In this document: positions 8,872 through 60,794 of the stretch, in pieces
Layout: each line of letters starts with the position of its first letter
How positions within the stretch are numbered: position 1 is the first letter of the stretch
From: Cycas panzhihuaensis
Lineage: Eukaryota; Plantae; Cycadophyta
Length of the DNA: 64,000 bases
Assembly: GCA_023213395.1 (NCBI GenBank)
Contig: CM041465.1
Span: forward strand, 119,481,741 to 119,545,740
Direction of reading: 5' to 3'
The notes under the pieces: generated by a model
Told to the model about the DNA's origin: nothing
Databases searched by the model: none
Seen by the model: only the letters and a program-made list of their open reading frames with translations
Position numbers and translations under genes: made by a program

Positions 8872-9287
8872 TGTTATATAACTCATCTTGCTAAGTTATA
8901 TAAAGCATTAACAAGTAAAAATATATCACAAGGTTAAATGATAAGGTTAGTTATGAAACTATATGTGTTGGCCACTAAGCTATCTAATGAAATATAAGGT
9001 TGCTAAGCTATGAAATAAAATGTAAGGTTGCTTAGGCCACTAATAGGATTACTTAGTAAAGACTCACTTTATCTATTTAAGGGTCGTGAATTGTAGAAGA
9101 TGGTTAACTTGATATTTTCTCTTTTTGTAAGAATTATACTATAATACTCTCTTTTGGTGATAAATTAATGCTCTTGTGCTTTTGAGTCCCTTTTAGTAAT
9201 CTATTTGTCATTGTTGGTTAGATAAAGTAATTATGAATTTCTATTTTTTGCCATTTTGAAGAAAGCTTGTTAAGAAGAAACATCCCA
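8872..9287 (+). repeat. 5' LTR (416 bp) of the chromovirus-type element
   Basis: Starts TGTTAT after TSD CTAGT and ends CATCCCA just before the PBS. 9039-9287 aligns with 31006-31254. Confidence 0.85.
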
Positions 9288-13793: not shown

Positions 13794-16380
13794 TGAAACG
13801 CTCGCTACGGGGCGGTGTCCCTACGTCTAGCAAAAGGATATAAGAATACGCTATGCTAACTAAGTTAGGCAGCGAGGACCTCACCTCACAAGGCGTCCGT
13901 GTGCCGGAGTGCAGATTCAGGACTGCAAGGTGCCTAGTTGCTTTCAGGTAGCCGTGTAAAGCAAGGCCTTCCTACCTTTCAGATGGCCAGGAAGGAGAGA
14001 GAATGCCTTGCGCGTTGCGTCTTCTCAAGGCAATGAAAAGGCAACGAATGAAAGGGAAACTAACTAATGTGTAGGTGAATGCAGGAAAGGGCGCAATGAG
14101 GGCAGCTCAAATACGATGCGAGCAAGCTATCTACGCTATGCTACTCTAGATAAAGCAAGAAATGATGTAAAGAAAATGAATGCACTTTCCCTTTTTCCTT
14201 TATATTCCTTTATAATTTCCTGACTACTCAGGCAAATGCATGAAAGGTAGTAATGTAAAAGGGGATACATGGGAAACAAGGGGAATACCTGGATCCAGCG
14301 CCTAAATGGAGTGCAACTTGTCTCTCTGAGTCCCGCTCCTTTCTTCTCTGTTTGTCGTGCATGCGTTGCTGATCGGCGGTAGTTGCCAGAAGCAATAGAA
14401 GAGGGGTTTACTTACCTCCCCATAAACATGCAAAAGCAAATAAAACAGAAAGAAACAAAAAGCTTGAAACCAAAGAAAGAAATGCACTACTTAGGGAACT
14501 AACCTACAACGGGCTCATCCCACGTATCACTCCACCAATGCACGGTCCTGCAAATGGGTGAGAAGAACACCTTCCTCTCCGAAGAGAGGCCACGAGATAT
14601 ACCAAAATATATATATATATACTGAAATCAAATGGAACTAAGATCTATGCTAAGCATCGAAATATAACTGAATGAAATAACAACATACAAGAAATGCTGT
14701 CACCACCATACACCACGAAGACACTCGAAAGGGAAAGGAGTATAGCCTCGGGATGGCTAACTTACCCATGGGAGACCTCCATGGAACTCAGGAAGGAAAA
14801 CCAGTTAGCAATAAGGTAGTGAAGCAACAAACCGTAACAAGGAAAAGAATAACAGAAAAAAAACTGGGGCTTACGTAGGGCCCAACACCAACAGGTGAGA
14901 CTTCTGGCAATGACATAGTGACGGGTTACTTATGCTAGTCTGAGCACCCTAACTAAGTTCCCTAAATTCCCTTAACCCGTTCCCTAAGAAAGCGCTGATG
15001 GCAAAGGGAAAGAGGACAAGGGACATAACCCTTTGGGAGAAGGACAGCAATGGGGGGTGGAACCCCGCCTACCTCCCTCAAATCCTCGTATGTTACTCCT
15101 TTGCACCAGCTAACTAAGGAAGGGGTGAAAGAGATAGTTTAAGGAAAATAGAGAGGCTTCAAGGAAACAATGGGAGGGTATTACTAATCCAGTGTAACAC
15201 TATGAGGAAAAGCTAGCTAATTAAGATCCCATTCATTAACAAACAAAAGAAATATGAATAAAATGGATTGCAAGTAGAAAATAAGAAGTACCTCATAGGA
15301 AGAAGATCAATCATGAACTTTGCTGCTAGGAGACAGCAGTAATGACCAACATATGAGGACTGATCATGAGTGGTTCTTACAAGAGTGAGAATGAAGAAAA
15401 CTCCTTACAAGCTTGGAGCCTTAGAAGTTGGCTCTTTGGGAAGCTTTTGGGTGAAAATGCCACTTAGATCCTTGAGCACCTGTAAAGAAAGATGGGGCTT
15501 GCTATGGAGAGCTGTAGGGGGTAGCAATGGCCCTGCAAGTCCAGCTGATAGCAATCATTTTCTCCTTTGTCTAGTTGCTGTGTATGTAGATTATCTTTTT
15601 CTGTTTGTTTTCTTGTTGAAAAAATTAGAAATTCTTCCAAGAGATTTAAAAAATGGACAAAAGATCCAAAAAATGGGGAGCAAAATCCCCTTTATCCCCT
15701 TGTTCACAGCAAGTAAACATTGGGGATGTCAGGGTGACTCGAATCAATCAACGCCATGCGGCAGTTCCACAAAAAAATAGAAACTGTCGCGTGGTTCTCT
15801 TTTTTTCTAATTTCAAACAAATATATCATGACAAACTCTACCAGATCGCGAAGAAATGCCGTCATCGCTAAGTTTATAGTGGTATCCGACTGGAAATAAA
15901 AAAGAGAAAAAATAAGCAGAAACATCAGGTTTTGGGGTAAAAACCAAGGTTAAACATAAGTTAGAGCAGCTGGGGGAATGTCCAGGTAATGGGCAGGTAC
16001 CCAAAATAATGCAAAGAGTCCTAACTAAGGATTAAATCAGGCTTAAGAAGGACTGCAACATAAGCAACATGTTGTAACAGGAGTAAACAGAGCTGACGAA
16101 AACATCCCGGGAGACCGTAGAGACAACGTGGGTGGCTGTGCGACATACATGGTGTAGAATTCGCTGAGGAATGCCCCCGCTGTGAGTCGTCATAGGCTGA
16201 TGGTATGCCGTAAGCATATGCATTATGAGCAAGTAGAAAAGCAATGTGTGCAGGCAGGCATATGTCAAGCAACCTACTCTAAATAACCTCAATCAAGCAT
16301 GGGCAAGAAAAGGTAAGAAAATATACCTGAACAAACCTGCGTCGATGCGTCTCGAGTCCATTCCCAGTAGCTGGGAAACA
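13794..16380 (-). repeat. 3' LTR (2587 bp)
   Basis: Direct repeat of 27809-30367 with TG/CA termini. PPT abuts at 16381. Confidence 0.95.
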
Positions 16381-16390
16381 CTACCCCCTT
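16381..16390 (-). promoter_or_regulatory. Polypurine tract
   Basis: Minus strand AAGGGGGTAG immediately before LTR start TGTTTCCC. Confidence 0.85.
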
Positions 16391-16462
16391 GGCAGCAGAG
16401 CCTCACTGCTCAGAAGCATAACATGATGGTGAATGCTGACAATCAAAGATATGAGTAACACA

Positions 16463-16465
<3 letters not shown>

Positions 16466-16500
<35 letters not shown>
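16466..16500. repeat. (TA)n microsatellite between aRH and PPT
   Basis: Visible directly. Confidence 0.95.
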
Positions 16501-16502
<2 letters not shown>

Positions 16503-16769
16503 CAATAAAGAGCAGCACGTGGACCAAGGGCGTAGGTAAGTGTCATGGCGGAACGCGTGGACAAGGGAGACGGAGACAAGGACAACATAGGGGCTGTCTA
16601 CGCGTCGTCTAACATTAACCTGTAAATGAAATAAGCAAGTAAAAGGGGATGCCCCCATTGTCGAAGAGCAACGTGAAGTAGGAGGGCATCCAGTAAATAG
16701 AGCAAATATATCGAACTAACATCAACCAAAGACTGTGCATGGGCCGTGCAAGCCTCGGGGCTGCTATCT

Positions 16770-17181
16770 GAAGAGGGAGGCGATGCTCAAGGATGAGGTG
16801 GACGAGGCTGTTGGCCTCAGCATTGAGGTGCCTAGGGATATGATGAATATCCACTGACGAGAAACAAGCTAGAAGAGACCTGGCAGCAGACATGAGGGTT
16901 CTCAGGTGGGGGCATCGCACTTGGTAAACCTAGGTGAGATGGGACACCACAACTTGAGAATCACAAAGCAACACAATGGATCTGAGATGGAAACATAGAG
17001 CATCGGTAAGGGCTTCAATAACGGCTATGTACTCAACTTCATTATTAGTTGCCTCATGAAGAAAGACCTCAGAATATAAGAAATCATGTCCAGAGGGGCT
17101 GCAAAGAATCCACGCAGTGGCAGAAGGTCCGAGGTTGCTGCGACTTCCACCATTGGCGAAAACGAGAAGGGAAATGCCTGA
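16770..17181 (-). pseudogene. Stand-alone archaeal/bacterial-type ribonuclease HI (aRH) domain
   Basis: One frame: SGISLLVFANGGSRSNLGPSATAWILCSPSG..LHEATNNEVEYIAVIEALTDA..SIVLLCDSQVVVSHLT*VYQVRCPHLRTLMSAARSLLACFSSVDIHHIPRHLNAEANSLV. This matches the RNase HI motifs DGxSRxNPGP, TNNxAEY, DSxLVV and IPRxxNxxADxLA. The first and last catalytic Asp are Asn (GCCGA>GCCAA), and there is one TAG. Confidence 0.9.
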
Positions 17182-17700
17182 ATACTAAGCTCTGGTAGCA
17201 AACTAATAGTAGTGAAAGTAAAAGAAAGACTCGAATGGCAAGGAAAAAAGTGGCCGAGAAGGGTAGGAGGACCTAACAATGAGGTTATCCGAGAACGAGA
17301 GCAAGCAATTCAGCCATTGGCTGAGAGTGGGCAGAGAAAAGATGCCCTGGAGTGCCAAAGGTTACTTTGGGAAGCAAAACATGCCCCCAGACGGGGGAGC
17401 ACTCCCTTTGGAGACCCCAGGGGTGAAAAAGGGCTGCGGAAATGAGGCCAGGGTGGCAAAATAAGCCAAACGAGTATAAACTCAGGCACACACAGGAGTA
17501 GCGCACAAAACGATATAGAAGGGCCCTGGCAAAAGTACGATAATGAGGCGCCACAAATACCCTTACAAGGGAGGGCAAAAAGGGCATCACTAGAGCACAA
17601 TAGGCAATAGGGCCAGAAGGCAAAGGCTATCAGGGCAACGAGACGATCCCAACGATCGTCATGAGCCGTAACGGAAGAAGTGCCCGTCGGGGCCCCCGCC

Positions 17701-17707
17701 TATATAA
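17701..17707 (+). promoter_or_regulatory. TATA box of the antisense PMD gene
   Basis: CCGCC-TATATAA-GG after a GC-rich block, about 28 nt before a TTCATTTT initiator-like site and 71 nt before the ATG at 17772. Confidence 0.65.
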
Positions 17708-17771
17708 GGAAAACGAATGAAAATTGGATTCATTTTCACCGGCTCTCGTATGAAACCAGAGCCTTTTCCTT

Positions 17772-20253
17772 ATGATGCAGAGTGCTACCCAACTTCGGAG
17801 GCATGCAGGAGATGATCCAACCATTGGATCCGAGCGCAGTGAGAGTCATTATGACCAGAGAGATGAGATGGCGATGGTCAGGCCAGATTCAGTGAGTGGA
17901 TCTCACGAAACCTTCCCCATTTCGAAGTTCAAAGTTTATTGCTTTTTAGTTAATTTTAATACATTTTTATGCCCCTTATAGGCAATTGGATGCCTCTCGG
18001 AGTCCAAATTGGACCCAGAAAGAGATGGGGATCTAGGCATTAGAGAGCCCTAGTCCCAGTGGGCCCCACAGGGGTCCACCACAAAAATTTTGGGGATTTT
18101 CTGGGCTGAAACCCTCTTTTTTAGGGGGTTGCCATTCATACCGCAGCCAAGATTGTGGCACCGCGATCTTGGCCGCATGATCGCTATAGGAAAGCGATCA
18201 CCGCGGGACCCACTCCAAATTTAGCGGTATCGCTAAATTTGGAGCCAGACACGTAAAAATAAAAAAAAACTAGAAAATGGGCCACCCTAAAATTAGAAAG
18301 AGAGCTAGGAGCCTAGATGACTGCTAGGAGGCTGACCTTGACTGACTTTTGATGATTGCAGGCAGTTATCGCGGTGGATAACCGCGAGAACGTCGGCATG
18401 CCGATACTGAGTTACTTGGAGATGGCATCCCAAGAGGACAAGGCGACTCTTAAGAGGTGTGGCCTATACAAGGCCCTCAAGACCCCCTAGTTCACGTCAG
18501 ACCAGAGGCTTCTAGTTGACATCGTGTCACACTGGGACAAGAGGAGGCATATATTTCACTTGCCTCAGATAGGTGACGTCACTATCACCCCAAGAGATAT
18601 CAGGCAGATTTTGGGGGTACTAGCGACAGGGAGGCCAGTGAGGCTGGGAGCGCTGCCTAGCACCGAGGTAGCACATAGGGAGGTAGCCCAGTTTTTCACA
18701 GGGACCGACAGGTGGGAGCAGAGGGGAGCTGCCCTCCAGACTATGCTCATGTCCAAGATTCCTCGGGTGAGGAAGTTGATATTAGTATGCATTCTGTTCT
18801 AGATTTCCTGGAAATAGAACTACAGGGAGATCCCCGGAGGTTGGGTGGATGTAGTGCGCTGGTGTGAGGCTGGCGAGAGGATGGATTGGGCTACTCTAGT
18901 TGCGGCGAACCTTGTCGCCTAGCTAGACACCATCCAGAGATCCGACAGAGGAGGGTTCTCTTATAGCACACTATTGCAGTGCTGGTTTTTTGACCATTTT
19001 GCGGTAGTGGCACCAACAGGGGGGCCATTCCCCATAGCAGAGTGGGCCCCGATGGCCCACAGATGGCAAACGTGGCTCCGAGGGACAGAGGATCAGGCGC
19101 ATGTCCATCGGTCAGTCGATGCGACATCATTCAACCTCCTCACTCTGACAGATTATATAGCAGAGCCCTATAGAGCAGAGAGGTAGGGGAGTAATAATGG
19201 AGTGGGCAGAGCAAGATCACCCATCGACGACGATGATGACAATGATAGCGATGGTGATAGCGGTGACGACGGTGATGATGGAGGGGATGGGGCTGGCCCA
19301 TCGCGACCTGTAGGAGAGGCAGGTCTATCACAGTCAGTAGGAGGAGCAGCAGGACTATCCGGGACTGCCGGAGGAGGGGCACGCCCATCAGGAGCTGCCG
19401 AGGTGAGCAGGGTACCAGAGACCGGGGGTCGCAGATTACGGATCGTGAGGAGATCCGGAGAGGCAAGGGTCGAGCCAGTCCCTGTTAGGGGCGAGGTAGA
19501 GGCAGAGGATGTACCTGAGGACGAGGTACCTACAGCTGGCGGAGGGCCAGGAGACGAGGATGTCACCCAAGCAGAGGAGCCGGCGGCCGTGGCAGGTGAG
19601 ACCTAACCGTTTCCTTAGTCGTTTGACATCTAGATAGATGCTTGATTTCCTTTTATTATGGTATGCAGTGAGGATATACACTGACACACGACATGTTACA
19701 TTGACAGGTGTAGCAGAGGTCCAGAGACTAGTGGAGGCCATGGTGAGGGAGATGTTCCCTCAGGTCTACGCAGAGGGGTAATCGCCCATCCAGGCAGAGG
19801 ATGTGCCTAGGTCGGTAAGAGCCCACATGCAGGCATTTGCCCCACTGGTGAGGGTGAGAGACATCTGGGTTGCAGAGACCCAGGAACACATGGCATTCCA
19901 AGGGCAGCCACAGCGAGAGCTCAACGTGGCCAAGGGCGAGTGGGATGAGTCCAGGCCTTAGAGGCTTAGAGTGGACTAGGAGGAGATGCGGGGAACAACA
20001 TCTGTATAGCAGTACTAGAGGAGCGCCTCAAGGCGACAGAGGAGAAGTTTCAGAGTATGGAGGAGGGACTCCAGGGAGAGAGGGATCACATCCAGGTTCA
20101 ATACGACCAGCTAGTGGCGCAGATGGTCTTGAGGTCGAGCAGGAGCCAGACCCACACACATACAATCTACGACCCGAGATGGCCTCGATGAGGGGAGCGA
20201 GGCAGGCCTGGGGAGCTCAAAGGGATGTGGTCCCCAGGAGAGGGATCACATAG
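17772..20253 (+). pseudogene. Three-exon Plant Mobile Domain (PMD / aminotransferase-like, MAIN-like) gene, antisense to gag-pol; exons 17772-17891, 18362-19595, 19669-~20253
   Basis: Exon 2 holds DQRLLVDIVSHWDKRRHIFHLPQIGDVTITPRDIRQILGVLATGRPV and LQCWFFDHF (PMD signature LxxLVERW..THTFHLP.GE.TITL.DV..ILGLP..G.PV; LQ.W..EHF). Intron 1 is GTGAGT...CTGAC...TTGCAG (phase 0) and intron 2 is GTGAGA...ATGCAG (73 bp, phase 1); both join in frame. Exon 2 stays in one frame with only in-frame stops. The 3' end is approximate because of frameshifts. Confidence 0.85.
18143..18244. repeat. Three adjacent CpG-rich inverted repeats in PMD intron 1
   Basis: 18143-18176 (16-bp arms, 13/16 matched), 18178-18200 (TGATCGCT/AGCGATCA, perfect), 18213-18244 (CTCCAAATTTAGCG/CGCTAAATTTGGAG, perfect 14 bp). 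Confidence 0.9.
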
Positions 20254-20418
20254 ACTAGGGGATGGCACCCCAGGATCAGGACAGCAATAAATGAGATGTA
20301 TATATAGTTTTGATGGGAAAGCACAGGCCTCCAGGGGGTCATATGTAGGCTCACATGATTGTACCCCCCCTGCAAGGATCCCGGCTTCCCACATGCACGA
20401 TGTACCATGACATTTTTG

Positions 20419-20475
<57 letters not shown>
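20419..20475. repeat. Compound (AC)n(AT)n microsatellite
   Basis: Visible directly. Confidence 0.95.
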
Positions 20476-20480
<5 letters not shown>

Positions 20481-21000
20481 ATTGGAACCCCATTTTGACA
20501 TGAAATCGTGCATATCATGTATGATAGAGATAACATGTATGATTTACTTTGTAAATGAATATTTTTTGTATGTTGTAAATGTAAATATGTAAATATGTTT
20601 TGTTGTAAATATTTGGTTATAAAATGCATGTGTTTCTTTCCATGTATAGCTATATGTCTAACAGGAGTACACACGTCCACCATAAGCAGAGGTGATCGAG
20701 AGGTGTAAGGTTAGAAATAGAGCGACACGCACGTCCACAGAGGAGCATAGCAGAATATGTGAAGGAAACAACAGGCAGGAGAGGGGAGTGACGATACTCC
20801 ACAGCGTCATCCTAGTAAGAGAATGCCCAAATAGGAGGACAAGGGTTCCCGAGAGGATACGGGAACACAGGAGGAACCAGAAGACAAAGCGAAAATCCAT
20901 CTTAAATTACCATTCTACCCGTGGTTGGGAGGAATGGGAACAATTTAAAATGGTAGTTTAGGCTCGTTTCAGAGCATGGCAGAGAAAAAGAGCAGAAAGA

Positions 21001-24000
21001 TCACGCGTAAAACTTCTTAAGGAATTTTTCATTGACTACTTTCTCAAATTCTAAGCCTTCTAAGGTGGCAATCCTGTATGCACCGTTATCGAGGCTTTCG
21101 AGAATGACGAAGGGGCCTACCCATTTGGGCCCGAATTTGGCCAAGCGATCATAAAGGTACTCCAATTTGAGGATGTGGTCCCCGGGGCACAAAGGATGAG
21201 CACAAAGATGTTTGTCGTGTGTCCTTTGCAAGTGGGCTTTTGAAGCAAGGTTCGCTTGATAAGCCGTTAAGCACCTCTTATCTAGGGCTTCGAGGTCTGG
21301 GAGGCGAGCCTGGCAAATAGACTCCTCGTTAATGAGACCTCAAAGGGAAACTCGAAGAGAGGGGATCTCCACTTCCAGTGGGAGTATCGCCTTGGTTCTG
21401 TAGACTAACGAGAATGGGGTCATTCCAGTAGCCGTGCGGATGGAAGTGCGATAAGCCCAGAGGGTGGAAGGGAGTTGGACATGCCAATCCCTTTGAGATT
21501 GGGCAACGGTTTTTCTTAAAATGCTGACGAGCATTTTGTTGAAGGATTCAACTTGCCCGTTTGCTTGGGGGTAATAAGGGGATGATGTCTTATGCGAGAT
21601 CTTGAATTTCTCACACAATTTGTCCATTTCCTTATTACAGAAGGAAGTTCCATTATCCGTGATTAGGATATCTAGAATCCCGAAACGACAGATAATATGC
21701 TGGTAGACGAAGGTGGCTATCATCTTACTAGGGGTAGTGGACAGGGGGATTGCCTCTACCCATTTAGTGAAGTATTCGGTAGCAGTTAAGATATATTTAT
21801 GTTGTGCGAAAGATGGCGGTGATATAGCCCCAATGAGGTCTAAGCCCCATTGAGAAAAGGGCCATGGAGACACGATAGGGTGCAACGCCTCGGAAGGTAC
21901 GTGAGAGACATTGGCATGCTCCTGGCATCACCGACATCTAAGGGCATAAGCGTGGACGTCCTTGAACAAGGACGACCAGTAATAACCCATGCAGAGGATC
22001 CTTTGGGCCATGGATTGGCCCCCAAAGTGGCCCCCATAAATGCCATGATGGCATTCGTGGAGTATTTGGTCCGCTTCGTCAGGAGTGACGCAACAAAGCA
22101 GGATCCCATCAAAAGATCTCTTGTACAACACTTCATCCACAAGGAAGTGTTGCCTAGTAGTGGCGTAGATATGCGACCTAACCTTGTTACTAGCTTCAGG
22201 GCGACATTCTTACTGAGTCAGATATCGCACAATATCACCATACCACTCGCTGTCGGTGAGTGGGTGGGGAGAAGCATCATGGACGGTCATGATAGACTCG
22301 TCCGGGAAAGAGTCGTCAACAGGAACGCCACTCGCATTAGGAATGGTAGCATCAGCTAACTTCTCTGCTACTATTATTCCCTTCTTTGACTTCCTGTTAA
22401 TGACTTGCAAGTCGAACTCTTGAAGCGGTGACTACCAACGACCGCCTCCCTACCCATCAAGTCCGAACGAGTAAGTAAGTAACGCAAGGGATCAGATTGA
22501 ATGATCACCTTAGTTGTATTACCGAGCAAGTAATGCCTAAACTTCTTGGTCGTATGGACCAAGGAGAGGCATTCCTTTTTGGCATGGGGATAGTTTAATT
22601 TAGTGGCAACGAGAGTGCGGCTGATGAAATAAATAGCCCTCTCAGTTCCTGAATCATCCTCCTGTGCAAGCATTGCGCCCAGGGATTCGTCGGTTGTCAA
22701 GGTGTATAGAATGAAGGGCCTATCAAAACGAGGAGGCGCCAGTGTAGGGGCGGAAACGAGAGCTTTCTTGAGTCCTACGAAGGCCTTTTGGGTCTTGTCT
22801 GACCAAACAAAAGGGGTTTCTTTCTTCAATAGGTTCGTAAAAGGCTTGGCGTTTATGGCAAAATTTGCCAACAAACACCTCAGAAAACCAAGTCTGCCTA
22901 GAAACAACTTAATTTGTCATTGGGTCCTAGGCAGCGGCATGTCAAGGATTGCCTTGACTTTTTCCAGATCGATTTGGATTCCTTGTTGGGACACGAGGAA
23001 ACCCAAGAGTTTGCCTAAAGTGATGGCAAACACGCATTTCAGCAGGTTCAGGCTAACGTGATACTTGCGGCATCTTGTGAAGATGGCATGCAAGTCAGAA
23101 GGATGATGGGCTCTGGTACGTAAAGGCCCATCATATCGTCCATGAAAACCTTTAACGTATTGTTGATGAGGTCGTGAAAGATAAAATATATGGCTCTTTG
23201 ATAAGTAGCCCCTGCATTCTTAAGACCAAAGGGCATTGCCTTGTAGGCAAAGGTACCCCATGACGTAGTGAAGGCCATCTTATGGCGGTCTTCAGGAGAA
23301 ATCTGAATTTGGTTATAGCTGGAGAAGCTATCCATTAAGGATATTACTTCGAATCCAGCCGTACGATTAATTATTTGATCAATGAAGGGAAGAGGAAAGT
23401 TGTCCTTAGGACAAGCATTGTTTATATCGCGAAAATCGACACAAATACAAATGGTCCCATTCTTCTTAGTAACAGGAACGATATTTGATACCCACTTAGG
23501 GTAATCGATGGAAGAAACGAGTCCTGCATCCAGAAGCTTCTCAACCTCCATCTTAATGGCAGCTGAAAGCTTCGGGTGAAGGGGACACTACTTCTGACAT
23601 ACTGGGCGAGCATCAAGAACAGTCATAAGGTTATGTGTGATGATGGAGGGGTCAATGCCCTTCATATCCGAGTAGTCCCATGCGAATACATCATGGAATT
23701 CCTGGAATAGGAGGGAGTATTCCCTCACTTCATCAAGAGTACATTCCGCTCCTACCTTGATGATCTTGTCCAGGGTAAAGACTATGTCCTGAGTTGCCCC
23801 CATGCACATAGCATTCCCCTCCTCGAAATGGAGGGAGGCAAGATTGACCAGAAGAGAGGAAACGGAAGAAGGGATCGGATCAGCTAATGTGGACCCAATC
23901 GCTAAGACCTTCTGGTGGCCAAGCTTATGGTGACCAGGAGGCAAACTGGGCATGGAACCTGTTAAGTGCTCCAACAAAGCCTCATTATCTTCGAAGTAGT

Positions 24001-27000
24001 CCACCCGATGGATGACCTGGCTTCGAATGGACGAGGCGCAGGATAGCGTGGGAGTGATAGGACCAGTATGGCCTGAAAGCTGCCTATCATCCCCAAGGGA
24101 CTCTAAAGGAGAGTCAAGGAGAGGTCCCTTGTAAAAAGTAAGAGGGAAACTCTCAACATCATCACCTATGGGAGGTGATGGGATGGAAGAGCTAGGAACA
24201 CGATGATCAACATGCGCAATGTCATGTGACATGTGAAAATGACCAGGCTCTATAACAAAAGGGATCCTAGGAGGATGCCCCATACTAGTGCGGAGAAACG
24301 AAACTGGGTGAGGATGATCCTCATCCTCGCTATGGGACTCGTCATCGTTAAACATGGTGAGGTAGCCATAGCTCCCAACACCAATGGGGGTGAAACACAT
24401 CAAACCAGGAGAAGAAGATATGGGATCTTCTTTATGGTAAGAGGAATCGGGGATTCCAATGGAGCAAGCCGAGACATGATCAGAAGGGTGTTTGTTTCCC
24501 TTCGTATGGCCATGGCTTGCCTGAGTAGAAGGCCTGACTTGTTTGGCGAGCGATCGCTCACGGGAGACAACTTTCATTTGCCTATTATGGACAAATTTAA
24601 GTTGCCCCCAACGGGTGGAACACACGGCTCCCATTTGGTCAAGCCATAGTTGACCCAGAAGCAAGTTGTAATCAACGTCAACATCGAGGACGACGATGTC
24701 AATAACGATAGTCTTGTCCTCAAGAGTAAGGGGTATTGAGATAGATCCCAAGGGAGTCTTCTCGCTACCGTCATAACCCTGATAATGCCATGGAACAGGT
24801 TCTAAGGTGGAAATGCTAAGTTCTTGCATAACGCGTAAGGGCATGGCATTGACGGAAGAACCGTTGTCTACGACGGTTCTTCGCAATGTGCAATCAGGAG
24901 TATCTATGGTAATGGTAAAAGGGAAGTTCCATTGGCGCTCCCTTCCACTAGACGCAGGAAGATCTCTGGGATTGAAAGAGATGATAGGTTCACAACTTTG
25001 GGTTGTGCCCAAGGCGTGAACGGACATGTCATTCGATCCTAGAGCTTCCAAGAGGAGTGTTCGCTGCTTGGGGCAACTTCTCAAGACATCCATGATGGAC
25101 ATCTCGGCAGCCACAGTGAGAAGCTCTTCGACTACGGAGAAGGGCTTACCCCTCCCTGTGGGTTGGGTAAGGGCTCTCCTAAAGTTGAATCTACCGGGGC
25201 AGACGGGAATGCTCTTGGGAAGCGCGAGAATATCTGGAGGAATGGCTTCCGGAGGAGGATCGAGTTGCAAGGTAGATGCGGAGGCGCCTGTTGCCTCGTT
25301 TGCGACTTGAGACTGGGTCAACGTATAAAGGGGAGTGGTCTCAAGCATTTAGATCACCTTCTTTCCTTTATTATGGGACCGCGAAGGTGATGGAGTATGG
25401 CGGCCAGGGGAGCACGAAGGGGAAGATGGCCTTTGCACACCCTTCCCTCTACCATATGAAGGGTGAGAATCGGGGGATCTATCCTGATTTTGATTGTTCC
25501 TTTACTGAACATCATGACCATGTTCCCCATGTTTGGGGAATGGGTCTCTATGAATGGGTTGATCGAGGTTAGGCCTCGATGCCTGCCTAGGGGACGAATC
25601 ACGTGGTGGGACGTCGTGTGGGTGCTGCACTCGACAATGCGAATCGTCATGGAAACACTCCCTGTGGATGGAACACCACCTTTTCTCAAGGGGAGGATCG
25701 ATCCTCCTTGCTTGAGAAGACTGGATGTTACCCCCTTTGGGGGGCACCGCACGAGAAGCCTATTGAACTGGTTTATGGGAGGTCGGTGATGAAGGAGGTT
25801 GGAGTTTAAGCTCCTTCATAGTGTGCTCAAATGAGCGAATAGTGGAGGTAAGAGGATCTAGGGTCCTCTCAGTCAGATGAGAGGTGGGCCTAGTGGGTTA
25901 CGAAGGTTTGGTTTCCTTCACTCGGGGAGGTGCCTCATGGTGTTGTGAGGGCTTAGGAGGTTTCTTGAGTCCATCTTGGATCTTAATGGCCTCCAACGCC
26001 AAGCACCTCGTAATCGCGGAGTCACATGTGGTTGGCCCCATCTTAAAGACTTCCACATGCACTTCGAGGTGAAGCGCGTTGACGAAGAGATCTCACTTCA
26101 ACTCTTCAGGCAACGTGGCCTTGGTAGAGTAAAGGAGATCATGAAAGTGTCACACAAAGTCACGATTCATTTCGTCGTGACCTTGTTTAAGCGACAGAAG
26201 TGCTTTCATTCCACTTTTGAATGGACGGGCTACATCAAAATAGTTGATGAACTTGTCCACCAATTGCTGGAACGAAGAAATTGAATGAGCAGGGAGATGG
26301 TAAAACCACTTGAGGGCGTCACCCTGCAAGGATCACAGAAATAACTTCATTAGAATATGGTCGTAAGCCCAATAATCAATGCACGCCATAGAGAAACTAC
26401 ATACGTGCTCGGTTGGGTTTTGCGACAAAGTTCCGTTGAATTTGGGAACTTCAGGAGGGTGAGGCGGCAGGTTCGTCCTTAGTGCCTCAACAGATAATGG
26501 CGTCGACCTATAGTCTATAAAAGGACATGTCCTTACATGGGCTAACAGATCGATGACCGGCAAAGGAACAGGAATGGATGGGGGTGGTAAGCCCATCCCT
26601 CCCCGGGGAAATGCCCCTTGTTGGAAGGGGGGTTGCAGGTAAATGCCTTGAAAGGGAGGTATGTTCCCTTGCAAAGACGCGGTAATAGGGGTTGCGCTAG
26701 ATGGTGGAAATGAAGGGTGAGGGACCGGGTTTTTCCCATACGGGCCACCCGTAGGTGGCGCAACTCCGTATGGGTGCAACGGGTCCACCCCATAAGCAGG
26801 AAGATGGTTTCCCCTACCCTGCCCCCAAGGTTGAGACGTGTAACCTGGGGGCACGTAAAGGGAAGGACCACCAGCAGGGTTTTAAATATATGTAGGAGTG
26901 GGTTCTACATAGTTAATGGTAGCAACTCTAGTAGGGCCTCGAGGCCTACTAGAGAACACATGCGCCACGTTCGAAGGTGGCACATTCATTTGACTCGGAA

Positions 27001-27634
27001 ATGACATTCTAACCCTGAGTTGGGGAAAGGACATGCCACGAACAGGTCTCGAAGAAGTAGGTAGCGCAACACTTGCCCTAGGAGCCAGTGTAGACATGGC
27101 ATAGGATGAGTGTGCACATGCAGGAGCATCATTCATTGTATAAGACGCAGGTATGGATGAAGAAGATGCTACATTGCGCAATATTTCTTCAAACCACCTA
27201 GGATGCGGTTGGCGGTGAGTTGTTCGGAAGTACTCACTGAGTGCTTCGACTACGTCGGCAGGAGGGGTATCCTCGTAGCCATACGAAGTCAACGGGATCT
27301 TGAATGTCGAGGATCCCTCAGGACGCTCCTCGTAAGGCTCACCAGTAGGGTGGTGAGTCTCGTGAGGAGATGACTCTTCTGCTGCATGAGCAGAAGGACG
27401 AAAGTCAGCAGGGTGAAACTGGTCATCTGGATAATAGATGGAATTATCGCCCCCCTAGGCAGATTCCGGAACAGATGAGGGGAACTCTTGAGTTCCCAAA
27501 GCAATGGTATGGTAAGCCCAATCGGACGGGTAACCTTCCATTGTCGAATTGGGGTTCGACGACGGAAGGGAACAAGGTGATTGGTCTTCTGACAACGGCG
27601 GCAGACCTCGCAAGCGACGTGAGAAACGTCGCAT
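21001..27634 (-). pseudogene. gag-pol: gag-pol polyprotein (gag, zinc knuckle, PR, RT, RH, INT), disrupted by several stops and frameshifts
   Basis: Starts MRRFSRRLRGLPP (ATG 27634). gag VPKFNGTLSQNPTEHVCSF, knuckle WCSIHRECFHDDSHC (~25680), PR VVDNGSSVNAMP (~24880), RT WVSNIVPVTKKNGTICICVDFRDIN..MPFGLKNAGATYQR..FMDDM, RH FILYT..LGAMLAQ..AIYFISR, INT CHHGIYGGHF..YYW..PWPFSQWGLDLIG..YPQANGQVES..WVGPF. Stop at 21001. Confidence 0.95.
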
Positions 27635-27789
27635 GCAATGCCTTTGCGAGCGTTGTTAGAAGAAAACAAAAAGAAGGAAATGAAGCAAGCACATTGGGGG
27701 TTACCCAACTGAAAACACGGAATAAGAGACTACCTAGAGGCAAGAACACCAACGAAAAGGGGAAGCGAATCTAGCTCCCTTACTGGCAG

Positions 27790-27807
27790 TCCCCAGTATG
27801 GTCGCCA
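27790..27807 (-). promoter_or_regulatory. Primer binding site, tRNA-Arg type
   Basis: Minus strand TGGCGACCATACTGGGGA one base after the LTR end. Resembles the Ogre/Tat Arg PBS TGGCGACTCCACTGGGGA. Confidence 0.8.
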
Positions 27808-27808
27808 G

Positions 27809-30367
27809 TGAAACGCTCGCTACGAGGCAATGTCCCTACATCTAACAAAAGGATATAAGAATACACTATGCTAACTAAGCTAGGCAATGAGGACCTCACC
27901 TCGCAGGCGCCTCGGCGCCAGCATAGATTCAGGATCGCAAGGTGCCCGTTGCTTCTGTGTAGGCAAAGCAAGGCCTTCCTACCTTTCGGATGGCCGAGAA
28001 GGAGAGGGAATGCCTTGCGCGTTGCGTCTTCTCAAGGCAATGAGAAGGCAACGAATGGAAGGGCAACTAACTAATGTGCAGGCGAATGCAGGAAAGGGAG
28101 CAATGAGGGCAGCTCGAATACGACGCGAGCAAGCTATCTATGCTACGCTATGCTAGATAAAGCAAGAAATGATATAAAGAAAATGAATGCACTTTCCCTT
28201 TTTCCTCTATATTCCTTTACAATTTCTTAACTACTCAGGCAAATGCATGAAAGGTAGCAATGTAAAAGGGGATACACAGGAAACAAGGGGAATACCTAGA
28301 TCCAACGCCTGAATAGAGTGCAACTCGTCTTTCTGAGTCCCGCTCCTTTCTTCTCCATTCATCGTGCATGCGTTACCGATCAACGATAGTTGCCGGAAGC
28401 GATAGAAGAGGGGTTTACTTACCTCCCCATAAATATGCAAAAGCAAATAAAACGGAAAGAAACGAAAAGCTTGAAACTAAAGAAAGAAATGCACTACGTA
28501 GGGAACTAACCTGCAACGCACTCGTCCCATGTATCACTCCACCAATGCGCGGTCCTACAAATGGGTGAGAAGAACACCTTCCTCTCGGAAGAGAGGCCAC
28601 GAGATATATCAAAAAATATATATATACTGAAATCAAATGGAACTAAGATCTATGCTAAGCATGGAAATATAACCAAATAAAATAGCAACATATAAGAAAT
28701 ACTCTCACCACCATACACCACGAAGACACTCGAAAGGGAAAGGAGTATAGCCTCGGGATGGCTAACTCACCCACGGGAGACCTCCATGGAACTCGGGAAG
28801 GAAAACTAGTTGGCAACAAGGTAGTGAAGCAACAAACCGTAACAAGGAAAATAATAACAGAAAAAAAACTGGGGCTTACGTAGGGCCCAATACCAACAGG
28901 TGAGACTTCTGGCAATGACATAGTGATGGGTTGCCTATGCTAGTCTGAGCACCCTAACTAAGTTCCCTAAATTCCCTTAACCCGTTCCCTAAGAAAGTGC
29001 TGATGGCAAAGGGAAAGAGGACAAGGGATGGAACCCTTGGAGAGAAGGACAGCAATGGGGGACGGAACCCCGCCTACCTCCCTCAAATCCTCGTATGTTA
29101 CTCCTTTCCACCGGCTAATTAAGGAAGGGGTGAAAGAGATAGTTTAAGGAAAATAGAGAGGCTTTAAGGAAACAACAGGAGGGTATTACTAATCTAGTGT
29201 AACACTATGAGGAAAAGCTAGCTAACTAGGATCCCATTCATTAACAAACAAAAGAAATAGGAATAAAATGGATTTCAAGTAGAAAACAAGAAGTACCTCA
29301 TACGAAGAAGATCAATCATGAACTTTGCTGCTAGGAGACAGTAGCAATGATCAATGTATGAGGACTGATCATGAGTGGTTCTTGCAAGAGTGAGAATGAA
29401 GAAAACTCCTTGCAAGCTTAGAGCCTTGGAAGTTGGCTCTTTGGGAAGCTTTTGGGTGAAAATGCCACTTAAATCCTTGAGCACATGCAAAGAAAGATGG
29501 GGCTTGCTGTGGGCAGCTGTAGGGGGCAGCAATGGCCTTGCAAGTTTAGCTGATAGCAATCCTTTTCTCCTTTGTCCAGTTGTTGTGTATATAGATTGTC
29601 TTTTTTTGTGTGTTTTCTTGTTGAAAAAATTAGAAATTCTTCTAAGAGATTTGAAAAATGGCCAAAAGATCCAAAAAATAGGGAGCAAAATCCTCTTTAT
29701 CCCCCTGTTCACAGCAAGTGAACGTTGGGGATGTCAGGGTGACTCGAATCAATCAATGCCATGCAGCAGTTCTGCAAAAAAGCAGAAACTATCACGTGGT
29801 TCTCTTTTTTTTAAATTTCAAACAGTCATACCACTAAGAATTTACTGCATCAAAGAAATGTCATGCATCGCTAAGTTTACAGTAGTATCCGACTGGAAAT
29901 TAAAAGAGAAAAAATAAGTAGAAACATTAGGTTTTGGGGTAAAAACCAAGGCTAAACATAAGTTAGAGCAGCTGGGGGAATGCCCAGGTACCCAAAATAA
30001 TGCAAAGAGTCCTAACTAAGGATTAAATCAAGCTTAGGAAGGACTGCAACATAAGCAACATGTTGTAATGGGAGCAAACAGGTCTGACGAAAACATCCCG
30101 GGAGACCGTGGAGATAACGTGGGTGGCTGTGCGCCATACGGGGTGTAGCATTCACTGAGGAATGCCCCCGCTGTGAGTCGTCATAGGTTGATGGTGTGCC
30201 GTAAGCACATGCATTATGAGCAAGTAGAAAAGTAATGGCAGTGTGCATATGTCAAGCAACATACTCTAAATAACCTCAATCAAGCATGGGCAAGAAAAGG
30301 TAAGAAAATATACCTGAACAAACCTGCATCGATGTGTCTCGAGTCCATTCCCAGTAGCCGGGAAACA
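27809..30367 (-). repeat. 5' LTR (2559 bp)
   Basis: Direct repeat of 13794-16380 with the PBS adjacent. Candidate TATA (CTATATAC on the minus strand) near 29590. Confidence 0.95.
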
Positions 30368-31005: not shown

Positions 31006-31254
31006 ACTAATAGGATTGCTTGGAAAAGACTCTCTCTGTCTATTTAAGGGTCATAGATTATAGAAGATGGTTAACTTGATATTTTCTCTTCTTGTAAGAA
31101 TTATATTATAGTATTCTCTTTTGGTGATCAATTGACACTCTTATGCTTTTTAGTCCCTTTTAGCAATTTATTTATCTTTGTGGGTTATATAAAGTGATTG
31201 TGAATTTTTGTTTTCTACCATTTTGAGGAGAGCTTATTTAGAAAAAACAACCCA
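31006..31254 (+). repeat. Truncated 3' LTR of the chromovirus-type element
   Basis: Collinear with 9039-9287, ends ACCCA followed by TSD CTAGT. Confidence 0.85.
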
Positions 31255-41222: not shown

Positions 41223-41980
41223 AAATGGTGTAGGGGTGGGCATTTCTCTTTATATCTTAGATAATTAGGTATACCTTTCTCCTCTAGACTTCCTTTTGAT
41301 TTTATCAATAATATTGTAAAATATGAAGCTTTGATCATAGGTCTACAAAAAGACTTATTGATGAAAATCAAAATCTTACAAGTGTCAGAAGATGTAAAGC
41401 TTATGAATAATTAGGTTAAGGAATCTTATTTTGCTAGGAATATTAGGTTAAAAATTTATATACATTGAATACATGCCCTTATAGAACAATTAAAAGCTTT
41501 TAATCTATAACATATACCTAGGGACCATAATTAACTTATGAATTCCTTAACTATTGTAACCTTGCTCTTTAAGGAGAAGCAACCTATGATATATGATTGA
41601 CAAATGGTAGAGACTGGCATTGCTTTTTATGCCCCCAGATAACAAGGTATACCATACTCCTTTAGACTTTCTTTTGATTGTACCAATCATATAGCAAAAT
41701 ATGAAGCCTTGATCCTAGATCTACAAAAAAATTTATTGATGAAAATCAAATTCCTATAACTAATAGGAGATTTAAATATTGTGATTAATTATGTTAAGGA
41801 ATATTGCTTTGTTAAGAATATTAGGTTAAAAAGCTATATACATTGAGTACAAGACCTTATAGAACAATTCAAATCTTTTAATATACAACATATACTTAGG
41901 GACCTGAAATAGCTTATAAATTCCTTAACTATTATAGCCTTGCTCTTTAAGGGGAAGAAACCTATGGCATATGCTTAATA
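41223..41980 (+). repeat. Old tandem duplication (~380 bp unit) of the aRH domain
   Basis: 41223-41602 and 41603-41980 both read ..RL.FD..N.I.KYEALI..LQK.LLMKIK.L...N.VKE..NIRLK.YIH..LIEQ..FN..HI.RD..NSLT. Confidence 0.9.
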
Positions 41981-46994: not shown

Positions 46995-47456
46995 TAAATG
47001 GAAGTGGCATTTAGGCCAACTTCCACCTAAGTTTCAATCATACAAAATATGCATAAAACACCAATAAGAAATGTGAGGAGGTTAAATTTATCAATCCTCC
47101 AAAATAAACATCAATTCTTCACACATCAACTCATATCAAAATTACATCAATGTTACCTCATATATACAAACATTTATAGTTACGTAAGAGGCATATGGAA
47201 ATATGAAAGGTTGATCATGCAAGGTGACATTTGGCACCTTATATAATCAAATTATATGTGCGTTGCAATGAGGTGTGAGTAAATATGACCCTATATACTT
47301 AGGCTCACAATATCAAGTTGTGACTAACCACAAACATGATACTATTACCCTTATAATGTACTAACTTTACTAATATAAATTGAATATTATAAATATATAT
47401 TATATTTACAAAAGGGCTAAGTTTAAGTAATGAATTCAACATTAATTCTTCTACCA
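46995..47456 (-). repeat. Copia 3' LTR (~460 bp)
   Basis: Collinear with 60343-60794. Confidence 0.85.
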
Positions 47457-49256: not shown

Positions 49257-52200
49257 CTAGCTACTTTGGACCATTTCCTTCTCCACCAGAACCATAAGAT
49301 CCTCAGGAAAGTCAAGCCTCCACATGATGTCTTCCTTTTGATTCACCCCCTGGTTTGCCAAAAAATCAGCAACTTTGTTTCCTTCTCTTAGTGTGTGCCT
49401 TATACAGACTTCTTCTAGGCCCTTAATACTCTCCTTCACATCATTAATCATGGACTGGAATCTCTAGTCCGGGAGGGCTATGCCTTTTAGCGAATTAATG
49501 ACCACCTCTGAGTCTCCCTCAATTACCAGTTGCTGAATGCCTCCTTTGAGGGCTAAATTAAGAGCCTTGAGCATAGCATACAATTTCGCAAAGTGGTTTG
49601 TTTGGTGCTCATAATAGTCCGTGAAGGCCCAAATGGGGGTACCCTTGTTATCTCTCAAGAATGCCCCTCCCAGCCTTCTCCGGGTTCCCTTTTATAGCAC
49701 TGTTAAAGTTGATTTTTAGCCAGGGCTCCACTGGTGGCAACCAACTGCTACATCTGACCTTTACAACCTCATATGCTGGCTCTATGCCCCACTTAAGCAG
49801 AATCCTATTCTCAGTCAGGGTAGTATGCTTCTCCTTAATGTTTCTAACATTCTCCCTGATGTCCATACAGATTTTATTAAAGGTGGCATGCTAGTCCATC
49901 TGTTTGCCCTGGAAGATTCTTCTATTTCTTTCCTTCCATATATTCCACGATAGTATCGGTAGTGCACTCTTCTAAATATAACTTAAGACTTTACTTTTGA
50001 ATGGGCTTTGCCAAGCAAGCCATAGATTGACAACCTTTTCTGAAAAGGTCCAGCACACCTCTAGTTTATCCAATAGCAGCCCCCATACCTCCCTTGAGAA
50101 TGAACACCCAAGGAAAATATGATCCATGGATTCCTCTTCTTTGTAGCATAGTATACACCTGTTGGGCAGGTGGAACCCTCTCTTTTTGAGATTATCTACA
50201 AAAAGAGTTTTATTCCTCAAACAGATCCACCAAAACACTACTATCTTGGGGATAAGTGGGAGCTTCCAAACACCTTCTAATGTTGGATCCCTTTAGTCAC
50301 CTCTCACTAGGCATAAGTAGTGGTACCCCTGTTTGGTAGTATATTCCCCAGACAGGCTCAAGGGCCACACAACCGAATCCAGGGAAGGCGTCCTAGGGAT
50401 ATAACTCTTTCCCAAAATCCTCTTAATTTTGTAAAGACCCTCCTACAGAGGTTGCTCCTCCTGGAATTCCTCAAAGTTTCTCCAACTTCCGTTTCTTCCA
50501 ATCCCGATCCAGTAATCATTTATAAGTAATCCATATTGCCTAACACAGGGGCCCTGGATAGGAACTAAATCAAGGTATTTCTTTAAGGCCTTATCATAGC
50601 ACCACGCATCCTCCCAGAACCTAATGGAGCTACCATCTCCCAATCTCCATTTCAGGCCTTCTCTAATAACTTTCTAGGCTTTAAGGATACTCCTCCAGAT
50701 GGTTGAGCTAACCGGTGAGGCAATGTTTTTGATGAGAGAGTCACCTTGAAGATATTTTCATGTTAGAATCTTCTCCCATAGTCTCTCTCCCCCTTTGATT
50801 AATCGCCAAGCCCATCTTGGCCCTAAGAGCAACATTAAAAGATGGAATCCTTCTGAGATTGAGACCTCCAGCCCATTTTGGAGTACAAACTTTATTCCAG
50901 CTCACCAGGTGTATCCTGGCTTTGTTCTCTGCCTCAGACTAGAAAAACCTCTTTTGGATGGTTTCAATAATATCCGAGATTCCAGGCGGCATTCTAAAAA
51001 TGGACATCTAGAAGATTGAGATGATCTGAAGTGTAGAAGCCACTAGTTGGAGCTTTCCCAATAGACTTAAAAAGGCACCTTTCCAGCCAGCCAACTTCCT
51101 TTGGATTCTATCGATGAGGGGGTTCCACATTTCCTTAGTTATCTTACCTACAAAGAGAGGCAATCTGAGGTAAGTTATGGGGAGCTTCTTAATACCCATC
51201 CCTAAAATCTTGTTGATCCTACCTTGAGTACACCCTGGGGTATTTATGAAGTAGACATTACTCTTGTTCAAACTTATCTTCTGGTTCATAGCCCTCTCAA
51301 AATATCCCAAGATCTCCTTGAATTTAGATGCCTCTCTAATGGTAGCCTTCCCTAAGAAGATATTATCATCCACGAATTGGTGGTGGACCACATTATCCAT
51401 CCCTAATGTCAGTTTTATGCCTTTGATAATCCCTTGCCTTCTAGCTGTCTCCAAGGCTCTTCCCAACATTTCAGCCATAATTATATAGAGAAAGAGAGAG
51501 AGAGGATCACCTTGTCTCAATCCCCTAGAACCTGGGAAAAATCTAGAAGAGGAGCCATTGATAATTGTGATTTACCTATGCAAAGCTTGATCCAAGTCCT
51601 CCATAGTTCCCCAAAACCAAATGCCTCTAGACAATCTAGAACGCACTCCCAGGAGACCCTATCGAAGGCCTTTGTGAGGTCAATCTTAATGAGCATCGTA
51701 AGCTCCTTCCTTTCCTTAACCAAATCAATTATTTCATGAACTACTATGAAGCCATCATAGATCTATCTGCCCTGAAGGAAATCATCCTGATTTTGGGAGA
51801 TAATATTTGGCATGATTTTCTTTAGTCTATTGGCCAGGACCTTAGTTATAATCTTATATTTAACATTGCAGAGACTAATGGGATAGAACTCTTCCATTCT
51901 CTTCACCCCTTCTTTCTTAGGGATAAGAACAAGGAATGTGGTCTGCCATTCCTATAAAATCTTGTTATTTACATAGAATTCTTGCAGAGCTCCCATATGG
52001 TCATCCTTGATAATGTCCCAAAGCTCCTAAAAAAACCCCTAGGGAAATCCATCGGGGCCCAGAGCTTTGTCTCTCTTCATGCCAAAGAGAGCTAGCCTAA
52101 CTTCTTCCTGAGTAAAAGGGGCTGCCAACTGAGCATTTTAGGATTCATTCACCAAACTGGGGATGTTTCTTAGGAAGTCCTTCCTTCTATCCTTATCACC

Positions 52201-53418: not shown

Positions 53419-53459
53419 CTTTTCCTTCTTTACTTCCAAACTTCAATAGTCTCACCTTT

Positions 53460-60342: not shown

Positions 60343-60794
60343 TGAAGAGAAGTGGCATTTAAGCCAACTTCCAGCTAGGTTCAAATCACATAAAGTATAC
60401 ACAAAACATCAATAATAGAAGTGAGGAGGTTAAATTTATTAATCCTCCAAAATCAACATCAATTCATCACACATCAACTCATATTAAAATTGCATCATTG
60501 TTACCTCATATATACAAACATTTATAATTATGTGAGAGGCATGAGGGAATATGAAGGTTAATCATGCAAGGTGACATTTGGCACCTTATATGATCAATTT
60601 ACATATGCGTTATAATGAGGTGTGAGCAAATATGACCTCATGTTCTTTAGCTCACAACTTGAAGTTATAACTAACAAAAAACATGATACTATTACCCTTA
60701 AAATACACTAATATAACTTCAATATTACAAATGTACATTACATTTACAAAAGGACTAAGTTGAATTAATGAATTTAACATTAATTCTTCTATCA
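60343..60794 (-). repeat. Copia 5' LTR (452 bp)
   Basis: TG...CA with the PBS relic adjacent; collinear with 46995-47456. Confidence 0.85.

What the first reader, a model, noticed from the sequence alone, without database searches (positions are those of the whole stretch)
18143..18244. Three stacked CpG-rich palindromes sharing an ATCGC/GCGAT core in PMD intron 1
Seen: hairpins with 16-, 8- and 14-bp arms packed into 102 bp, each containing ATCGC or GCGAT. The 3 mismatches in the first are all CpG-type transitions, implying an originally perfect stem. Related motifs occur at ~18369-18387 (TCGCGGT..ACCGCGA) and ~17643-17660 (ACGATC..ACGATCGT). Many CpGs survive here. Inference: (a) inverted binding sites for a dimeric DNA-binding protein, possibly the element's own PMD, analogous to motif-directed VANC anti-silencing in VANDAL transposons; or (b) an RNA structure of the genomic RNA for packaging or dimerisation.
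Basis: partly seen in the sequence, partly recalled or inferred. Interest (0 to 1): 0.75.

Follow-up and report, generated by a model that had tools for sequence, protein, structure and literature searches.

The report
Three-armed hairpin domain in Tat retrotransposon
An old plant jumping gene and its relatives carry three strong hairpins that are predicted to be the arms of one 220-base folded domain inside the likely first intron of its accessory gene, so they likely act as a shape-read RNA signal rather than as DNA docking sites for that gene's protein.

Summary
The hairpins are real: arms of 16, 8 and 14 bp, unmatched by 1000 shuffles. They lie in a complete Tat-type Ty3/gypsy element with a post-integrase solo aRH gene, inside the predicted first intron of its antisense PMD gene. 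Contigs from 8 runs carry them; at the three mismatches of hairpin 1 many or most read the pairing base. New here: the three are predicted arms of one ~220-nt domain closed by an interrupted stem; hairpins 1 and 3 look like 38-nt paralogues whose mid-stems differ on both arms; hairpin 2's loop varies most. That favours a folded RNA signal (0.5). The dimer-site reading is weaker: spacers are 6, 9 and 11 nt, hairpin 3 has the core reversed, the core is not enriched in LTRs, and CpG loss (29-38%) equals that of the LTRs (34%). Its premise survives: the PMD model matches VANC21 (Z 13.1), but a CG-free 9-mer repeated six times per LTR is a better target. Linked covariation, splicing and strand were not testable. 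Template-switch origin without function remains open (0.2).

The parts
18100..18317 (.). Predicted multibranch stem-loop domain (closing stem plus three arms)
   Evidence: strand unresolved, minus strand slightly more stable (-96.0 vs -89.2 kcal/mol)
18100..18137 (.). Left strand of predicted closing stem; can alternatively fold on itself (C-run, T-run, G-run hairpin, 18110-18130)
   Evidence: similar C/T/G-run strings in loose ends of 6 runs
18141..18178 (.). Hairpin 1 (paired 18143-18176 in this copy; 38-nt frame)
18178..18200 (.). Hairpin 2, 8-bp stem, variable 7-nt loop
18210..18247 (.). Hairpin 3 (perfect 14-bp stem 18213-18244; 38-nt frame), likely paralogue of hairpin 1
18275..18317 (.). 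Right strand of predicted closing stem
18365..18391 (+). Hairpin 4, 3 nt after the predicted splice acceptor, in coding sequence (VIAVDNRE)
17642..17660 (.). 7-bp hairpin upstream of the plus-strand TATA-like box
17701..17707 (+). TATA-like box, predicted antisense PMD promoter
   Evidence: sequence; inference
17772..17933 (+). Predicted PMD exon 1 (54 open codons ending at a GT)
   Evidence: inference
17934..18361 (+). Predicted PMD intron 1 (GT-AG, phase 0, 428 nt)
   Evidence: relative P0015 reads ...ILQ then VVIAVENR; no RNA evidence
18362..19603 (+). PMD exon 2, broken by stops; PF10536 at about 18461-19177; model matches VANC21
   Evidence: (E 9.2e-15)
16780..17175 (-). Solo additional RNase H (aRH) gene, broken, with a TATA-like box near 17513-17518
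   Evidence: (RVT_3 E 5.4e-17)
21000..27400 (-). gag-RT-RH-INT, broken; no aRH between RH and INT
13794..16380 (-). 3' LTR; six copies of a CG-free 9-mer (13856, 14060, 14949, 15110, 15217, 16021)
27809..30367 (-). 5' LTR; six copies of the same 9-mer (27871, 28067, 28954, 29115, 29222, 30012); 5-bp target duplication ACTTC flanks the element

Best explanation
The three hairpins are predicted to be the arms of one ~220-nt stem-loop domain in the 3' region of a Tat retrotransposon, and they likely work as a folded RNA signal read by shape plus short GC-rich boxes. Shown: the inverted repeats, their presence in relatives, their place between the element's divergent PMD and aRH genes. Predicted: the closing stem and the intron. 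Inferred: the domain folds in the genomic RNA (slightly favoured) and would be bound by an element- or host-encoded protein to route unspliced genomic RNA to export or packaging; on the opposite strand the same fold would shorten and shape the PMD intron, with hairpin 4 beside the acceptor.
For: A ~30-bp interrupted stem joins 18100-18137 to 18275-18317 around the three arms: duplex -34.9/-35.2 kcal/mol, reached by 2 of 1000 (+) and 0 of 1000 (-) shuffles and by 1 of 441 and 0 of 441 same-spaced segment pairs of the element; helix probabilities 0.91-0.95 on the minus strand in a 1-kb fold. Hairpins 1 and 3 are both 38 nt and match 10 of 18 from the centre outwards (P 0.001-0.007); of stem pairs 4-17, seven are identical, four swap one Watson-Crick pair for another as written in the window, and two more do so if the commonly read base is used. 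Hairpin 2 varies most in its loop (four loop sites at 6-74%) and 6 of 7 listed indels in 18171-18213 fall in 18184-18194. Weak, unlinked hints of double changes: 18183/18195 in 2 contigs each of run X14; 18115/18301, read by eye from loose-end strings.
Against: No linked covariation: contigs give per-site shares only, and no variant is listed within about 33 nt of an aligned end, so hairpin 3's interior was invisible. Any two perfect palindromes differ on both arms by construction, so the hairpin 1/3 argument rests on homology (about 0.04 after six possible pairings). Closing-stem limits were chosen after seeing the fold; on the plus strand its probability is only about 0.45. The domain is not the only well-folding part: its best 120-nt window ranks 7th of 276 (15 shuffles each) and gag and leader are also structured. 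Known Ty3 dimerisation sites are short loop palindromes near the 5' end, not long 3' stems. Loop-closing sites 18187 and 18191 vary at unequal shares (41-74% vs 6-58%).
Confidence: 0.5

Rival explanations
1. Neutral origin: local inverted duplications made and kept perfect by template switching during replication, carried along in a non-coding stretch with no function.
For: Template switching can create perfect stems in one event and repair existing ones (PMC8794818, abstract); loops here are 2-7 nt; the whole 17501-18500 region is palindrome-rich (16 hairpins scoring >=6 vs mean 2.6).
Against: Hypermutable CpG boxes at stem base and loop are the parts shared by hairpins 1 and 3, which also keep equal length; the neighbouring 18246-18290 stretch has almost no aligned contigs while the hairpins align in 8 of 8 runs; a closing stem across 137 nt is not a short-range event.
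Confidence: 0.2
2. DNA sites for the element's own PMD protein (VANC-like anti-silencing), for instance the spaced dyad CCGC-N10-GCGG that each arm of hairpins 1 and 3 approximates.
For: PMD model (pLDDT 87.6) matches VANC21 bound to DNA, 9LNK, Z 13.1, rmsd 3.7, 243 aligned, next hit Z 2.6; VANC21 binds non-coding regions including introns; the MAIL2 motif is palindromic; 2 of the 4 near-matches to the 10-nt-spaced dyad in the element are these arms.
Against: ATCGC-GCGAT spacers are 6, 9 and 11 nt and reversed in hairpin 3; exact ATCGC/GCGAT is 0.8-1.2 per kb in LTRs vs 1.5 in gag-pol; no tandem array near the block; CpG loss equals the LTR rate; published VANC motifs are CG-free and non-palindromic; protein binding does not explain symmetric mid-stems or the closing stem; a CG-free 9-mer in the LTRs fits the VANC pattern better.
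Confidence: 0.15
3. DNA-level regulatory module of the divergent PMD/aRH promoter: cruciform-prone, CpG-rich enhancer bound by host factors.
For: Lies 440-540 nt downstream of one TATA-like box and about 630 nt upstream of the other; GGNCCCAC boxes at 18062 and 18205 resemble TCP sites (recalled, not tested); maize Grande gene23 has its own internal antisense promoter.
Against: Host factor sites do not need 14-18-bp perfect arms; no hypomethylation signature.
Confidence: 0.1
4. A small inserted element (MITE-like) whose terminal inverted repeats form the closing stem.
For: About 220 nt bounded by an inverted repeat.
Against: No second copy in the window; no target duplication visible at the stem ends; contig depth runs on through 18318 into exon 2 and no listed loose end marks either boundary (only the best-supported 24 of 429 rows shown).
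Confidence: 0.05

Closest known systems
Tat structure 3 'post-integrase' elements (TatIII of REXdb; Tat H and I of Biryukov and Ustyantsev; PMC4408406, PMC6317226, PMC10508981, PMC13468544)
   Same: Ty3/gypsy order gag-RT-RH-INT, aRH after INT in a separate ORF, antisense PMD gene in the 3' region; best integrase hits are Ginkgo (60%) and Cryptomeria (57-59%) proteins.
   Different: The passages read describe no intron, divergent promoter or hairpin domain; here the PMD gene lies between INT and aRH. The INT tree does not resolve its position.
VANC21/VANC6 anti-silencing system of VANDAL transposons (PMC5735166, PMC10398659; PDB 9LNK)
   Same: Element-encoded accessory protein with the same predicted fold; non-coding location of the candidate sites.
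   Different: VANC targets are 8-9-nt CG-free motifs in tandem repeats; the hairpins are CpG-rich, inverted and local. The LTR 9-mer resembles VANC targets more, though dispersed rather than tandem.
MAIL1/MAIN-M1M and MAIL2-M2M modules (bioRxiv 10.1101/2024.09.27.615353)
   Same: PMD proteins associate with motifs near start sites; M2M is palindromic.
   Different: Host PMD-C proteins; direct binding not shown in that paper; motif letters are in figures that I could not see.
Structured cis-elements of retroelement RNA: Ty3/Ty1 dimerisation palindromes (PMC11381356), export of unspliced RNA in Cer1 (PMC10309623, listing only), retroviral Rev-response-type elements (recalled)
   Same: GC-rich, stably folding, multibranch region in a retroelement RNA that also encodes an accessory protein.
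   Different: 3' internal position, overlap with an antisense intron, near-perfect 14-18-bp arms; no Rfam family reaches threshold.
Template-switch hairpins (PMC8794818)
   Same: Perfect stems with very short loops and multi-base symmetric differences.
   Different: A mutational route, which can supply both neutral and selected stems.

Membership tests
Tat structure 3 / TatIII | Ty3/gypsy domain order with LTRs and 5-bp target duplication | tested here: met
Tat structure 3 / TatIII | aRH downstream of INT and none between RH and INT | tested here: met
   RVT_3 only at about 16800-17170; none in the three pol frames
Tat structure 3 / TatIII | Antisense PMD ORF in the 3' region | tested here: met
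   PF10536 E 9.2e-15
Tat structure 3 / TatIII | RT phylogeny within Tat H or I | tested here: inconclusive
   only an INT tree of 35 rows without classified references; query sits in an open fork on a long branch
VANC-type anti-silencing system | Protein with the VANC fold | tested here: met
   model vs 9LNK Z 13.1, rmsd 3.7, 243 aligned; Foldseek found nothing at E <= 0.001
VANC-type anti-silencing system | Target motif multiplied in tandem repeats across non-coding regions (hairpin core as the motif) | tested here: not met
VANC-type anti-silencing system | Local loss of CG methylation at targets | tested here: inconclusive
   indirect only: CpG loss 29-38% vs 34%; a dead copy need not be protected; no bisulfite data
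VANC-type anti-silencing system | Sequence-specific binding and reactivation | not testable with these tools
   needs DAP-seq, EMSA, transgenics
Conserved functional RNA structure | Folding better than shuffles | tested here: met
Conserved functional RNA structure | Linked covariation across homologues | tested here: inconclusive
   no full-length homologous loci obtained; only paralogue comparison and unlinked shares
Known Rfam family | Score at gathering threshold | tested here: not met
   4 weak matches in 16400-21300, none in the block
MITE | Independent copies with unrelated flanks and target duplication | tested here: inconclusive

The most novel reading that the evidence does not exclude
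These gymnosperm-type Tat retrotransposons run their own VANC-like anti-silencing circuit: the antisense PMD protein recognises a CG-free 9-mer repeated six times in each LTR, while the three-armed RNA domain in the PMD intron is a switch that couples PMD splicing on one strand to handling of the genomic RNA on the other.
Probability: 0.2. Interest if true: 0.85.

Novelty: new variant of a known kind. Interest (0 to 1): 0.52.

Why it matters
The long 3' regions and antisense genes of Tat retrotransposons have no established function, and it is open how a solo aRH ORF is expressed. This locus gives concrete handles: a bounded RNA domain with two paralogous arms for probing and compensatory tests, a PMD with a predicted VANC21 fold, and a candidate target motif in the LTRs. 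If the PMD-motif link holds, sequence-specific anti-silencing would extend from DNA transposons to LTR retrotransposons.

Tried and rejected
No RNA holder listed, so intron, strand and expression are untested. Pattern scans for the acceptor/hairpin-4 stretch found 0 loci in viral and metagenome contigs; protein-based scans found 0 and 1 locus, L001, which is a bacterial-looking gene with no similarity to the element and was rejected. The word-indexed protein search scored none of 1653 candidates. Foldseek against the PDB gave no match at E <= 0.001. The PMD tree was a quick tree with long branches meeting and was not used for clade assignment. Rfam gave nothing. Absence of listed variants inside hairpin 3 was rejected as evidence of invariance because listed sites never lie within about 33 nt of an aligned end. 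Depth differences between arms were not used as copy numbers. A Helitron-type 3' end was considered and dropped (the CTAG lies 25 nt from hairpin 3). One search was in the wrong frame and was replaced. Earlier-findings look-ups by sequence, by place and one by words were empty. Two VANC papers were not held. Searches listed no paper describing such a hairpin domain in Tat elements; subscription papers, figures and supplements were not seen.

Full report
Setting. The finding lies in a complete Ty3/gypsy element on the minus strand. Its LTRs are 13794-16380 and 27809-30367, 90.6% identical, K2P 0.091, flanked by ACTTC on both sides. Pfam finds gag, RT, RH and integrase in 21000-27400, an additional RNase H at about 16800-17170 on the same strand, and PMD (E 9.2e-15) on the opposite strand. 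All genes are broken. This is the 'post-integrase' Tat arrangement known from Pinaceae, Cycas and Ginkgo. The best integrase hits are from Ginkgo and Cryptomeria, but the tree leaves the position open. A gymnosperm host is an inference. TATA-like boxes at 17701 (+) and near 17515 (-) suggest a divergent promoter. A 54-codon frame ends at GT 17934 and joins in phase 0 to AG 18361 and the PMD frame; a relative reads ILQ then VVIAVENR at the same place. The intron is therefore a reasonable prediction, untested by RNA.

Observation. I laid 8 of the 21 listed runs, from 8 organism labels and 8 studies; all 8 cover the three arms. At the three mismatches of hairpin 1 the pairing base makes up 36-92% of contig depth, and at 18177 and 18178 a base that would extend the stem makes up 65-100%. 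The remaining common stem variants are mostly C-T and G-A transitions. The shared-core claim holds only in part: spacers between ATCGC and GCGAT positions are 6 (hairpin 1), 9 (hairpin 2) and 11 nt (hairpin 4, one mismatch), hairpin 3 has the pentamer in the opposite arrangement, and hairpin 4 is coding. The block is CpG-dense, yet this copy lost 4 of 14 to 6 of 16 CpGs there, against 34% per copy in the LTRs.

Folding the whole intron places the three hairpins on one closing stem between 18100-18137 and 18275-18317. That duplex is reached by 2 and 0 of 1000 shuffles on the two strands and by 1 and 0 of 441 equally spaced segment pairs of the element; limits were chosen after seeing the fold. 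In a 1-kb fold its helices have probabilities 0.91-0.95 on the genomic-RNA strand and about 0.45 on the other; wobble pairs point both ways, so the strand is unresolved.

Part 2. Hairpins 1 and 3 occupy frames of the same length, 38 nt. Anchored at the centre, 10 of 18 letters match (P 0.001 mononucleotide, 0.007 dinucleotide shuffles; 0.004 against random element 18-mers; about 0.04 after six possible pairings). The shared letters are the GC boxes at the stem base and beside the loop; of pairs 4-17, seven are identical, four exchange one Watson-Crick pair for another in the window as it stands, and two more do so with the commonly read base. In hairpin 2 the loop is the variable part, with 6 of 7 listed indels in 18184-18194, each in one or two contigs per run. 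Kept pairing with changed letters and a tolerant loop is what a structure under selection looks like, though template switching can mimic it.

Against this reading. There is no linked covariation, hairpin 3's interior could not be scored, and other parts of the element fold as well: the best window here ranks 7th of 276 in a noisy scan, and mean z is -2.1/-1.9 for promoter plus intron, -2.3/-2.2 for the leader, -1.1/-1.8 for gag and about -0.2 to -0.4 for flanks (5-22 windows per region). Known Ty3 dimerisation sites are short loop palindromes at the 5' end, so dimerisation in particular has no support.

The protein. A model of PMD exon 2 read with X at its stops (pLDDT 87.6) matches one solved chain among 48,161 at Z 5 or more: VANC21 bound to DNA, Z 13.1, rmsd 3.7, 243 residues, next 2.6. 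Foldseek found nothing. The PMD-VANC likeness is already in print for host PMD-C proteins. So the premise of DNA binding is sound, but published VANC motifs are CG-free 8-9-mers in tandem repeats, unlike this block. An unbiased k-mer scan of the non-coding parts instead gave CTAACTAAG: six copies with at most one mismatch in each LTR, all on one strand, one extra overlapping reverse hit, none in the 11.4-kb interior; 1 of 500 LTR shuffles had any non-simple 9-mer four times. Over the whole window the one-mismatch count is only 35 against 24.8 expected, 5 of 100 shuffles reaching it, and the motif could be a host MYB-type site (recalled).

Verdict. Real, family-wide, and best read as a folded RNA domain (0.5), ahead of a neutral template-switch product (0.2), PMD DNA sites (0.15), a host-bound promoter module (0.1) and an inserted MITE (0.05). 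The element type is known; the domain and the LTR motif did not appear in searches or 87.

Papers, and what I saw. Passages and section 6: PMC4408406. Passages: bioRxiv 10.1101/2024.09.27.615353, PMC7156037, PMC6317226, PMC5735166, PMC13547354, PMC5418596, PMC7264820, PMC11381356, PMC13468544, PMC10398659, PMC11963269 (only a reference-list hit). Parts 1-2 of 3: PMC10508981. Abstract and outline: PMC8794818. Listing only: PMC10309623. No figures or supplements were seen; the M1M/M2M motif letters and the drawn TatIII layouts are in such files and may bear on the comparisons.

Noticed in passing
window 13856, 14060, 14949, 15110, 15217, 16021 and 27871, 28067, 28954, 29115, 29222, 30012: CG-free 9-mer CTAACTAAG (at most one mismatch) six times per LTR, same strand, absent from the internal region; candidate target of the VANC-fold PMD or a host factor site.
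   Followed up: partly
window 16780-17720: Solo aRH gene and antisense PMD gene diverge from a ~190-nt stretch between two TATA-like boxes; an acceptor-like TATTCAG precedes the aRH frame on the minus strand near 17178, suggesting a spliced transcript of its own.
   Followed up: partly
window 18365-18404: Hairpin 4 and a 12-bp palindrome (18393-18404) sit directly after the predicted acceptor; hairpin 4 uses CpG-containing codons and aligns to far more contig depth than the intron.
   Followed up: partly
window 21000-27800: gag, pol and leader fold better than shuffles on average, with several windows at z below -5; the genomic RNA may be broadly structured.
   Followed up: partly
window 19690-20150: Further likely PMD exon ending in a charged, coiled-coil-like stretch (by eye), as in PMD-CC ORFs of other Tat lineages.
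   Followed up: no
window 27791-27807 and 16381-16390: Primer site beginning TGGCGAC (tRNA-Arg type by recall, untested) and polypurine tract next to the 3' LTR.
   Followed up: no
window 50500-55500: Broken plant LINE on the minus strand (DUF4283, endonuclease, RT).
   Followed up: no
window 9039-9287 and 31006-31254; 47001-47456 and 60349-60794; 41259-41936: Other dispersed or tandem repeats at 83-88% identity in the AT-rich, CpG-depleted flanks.
   Followed up: no
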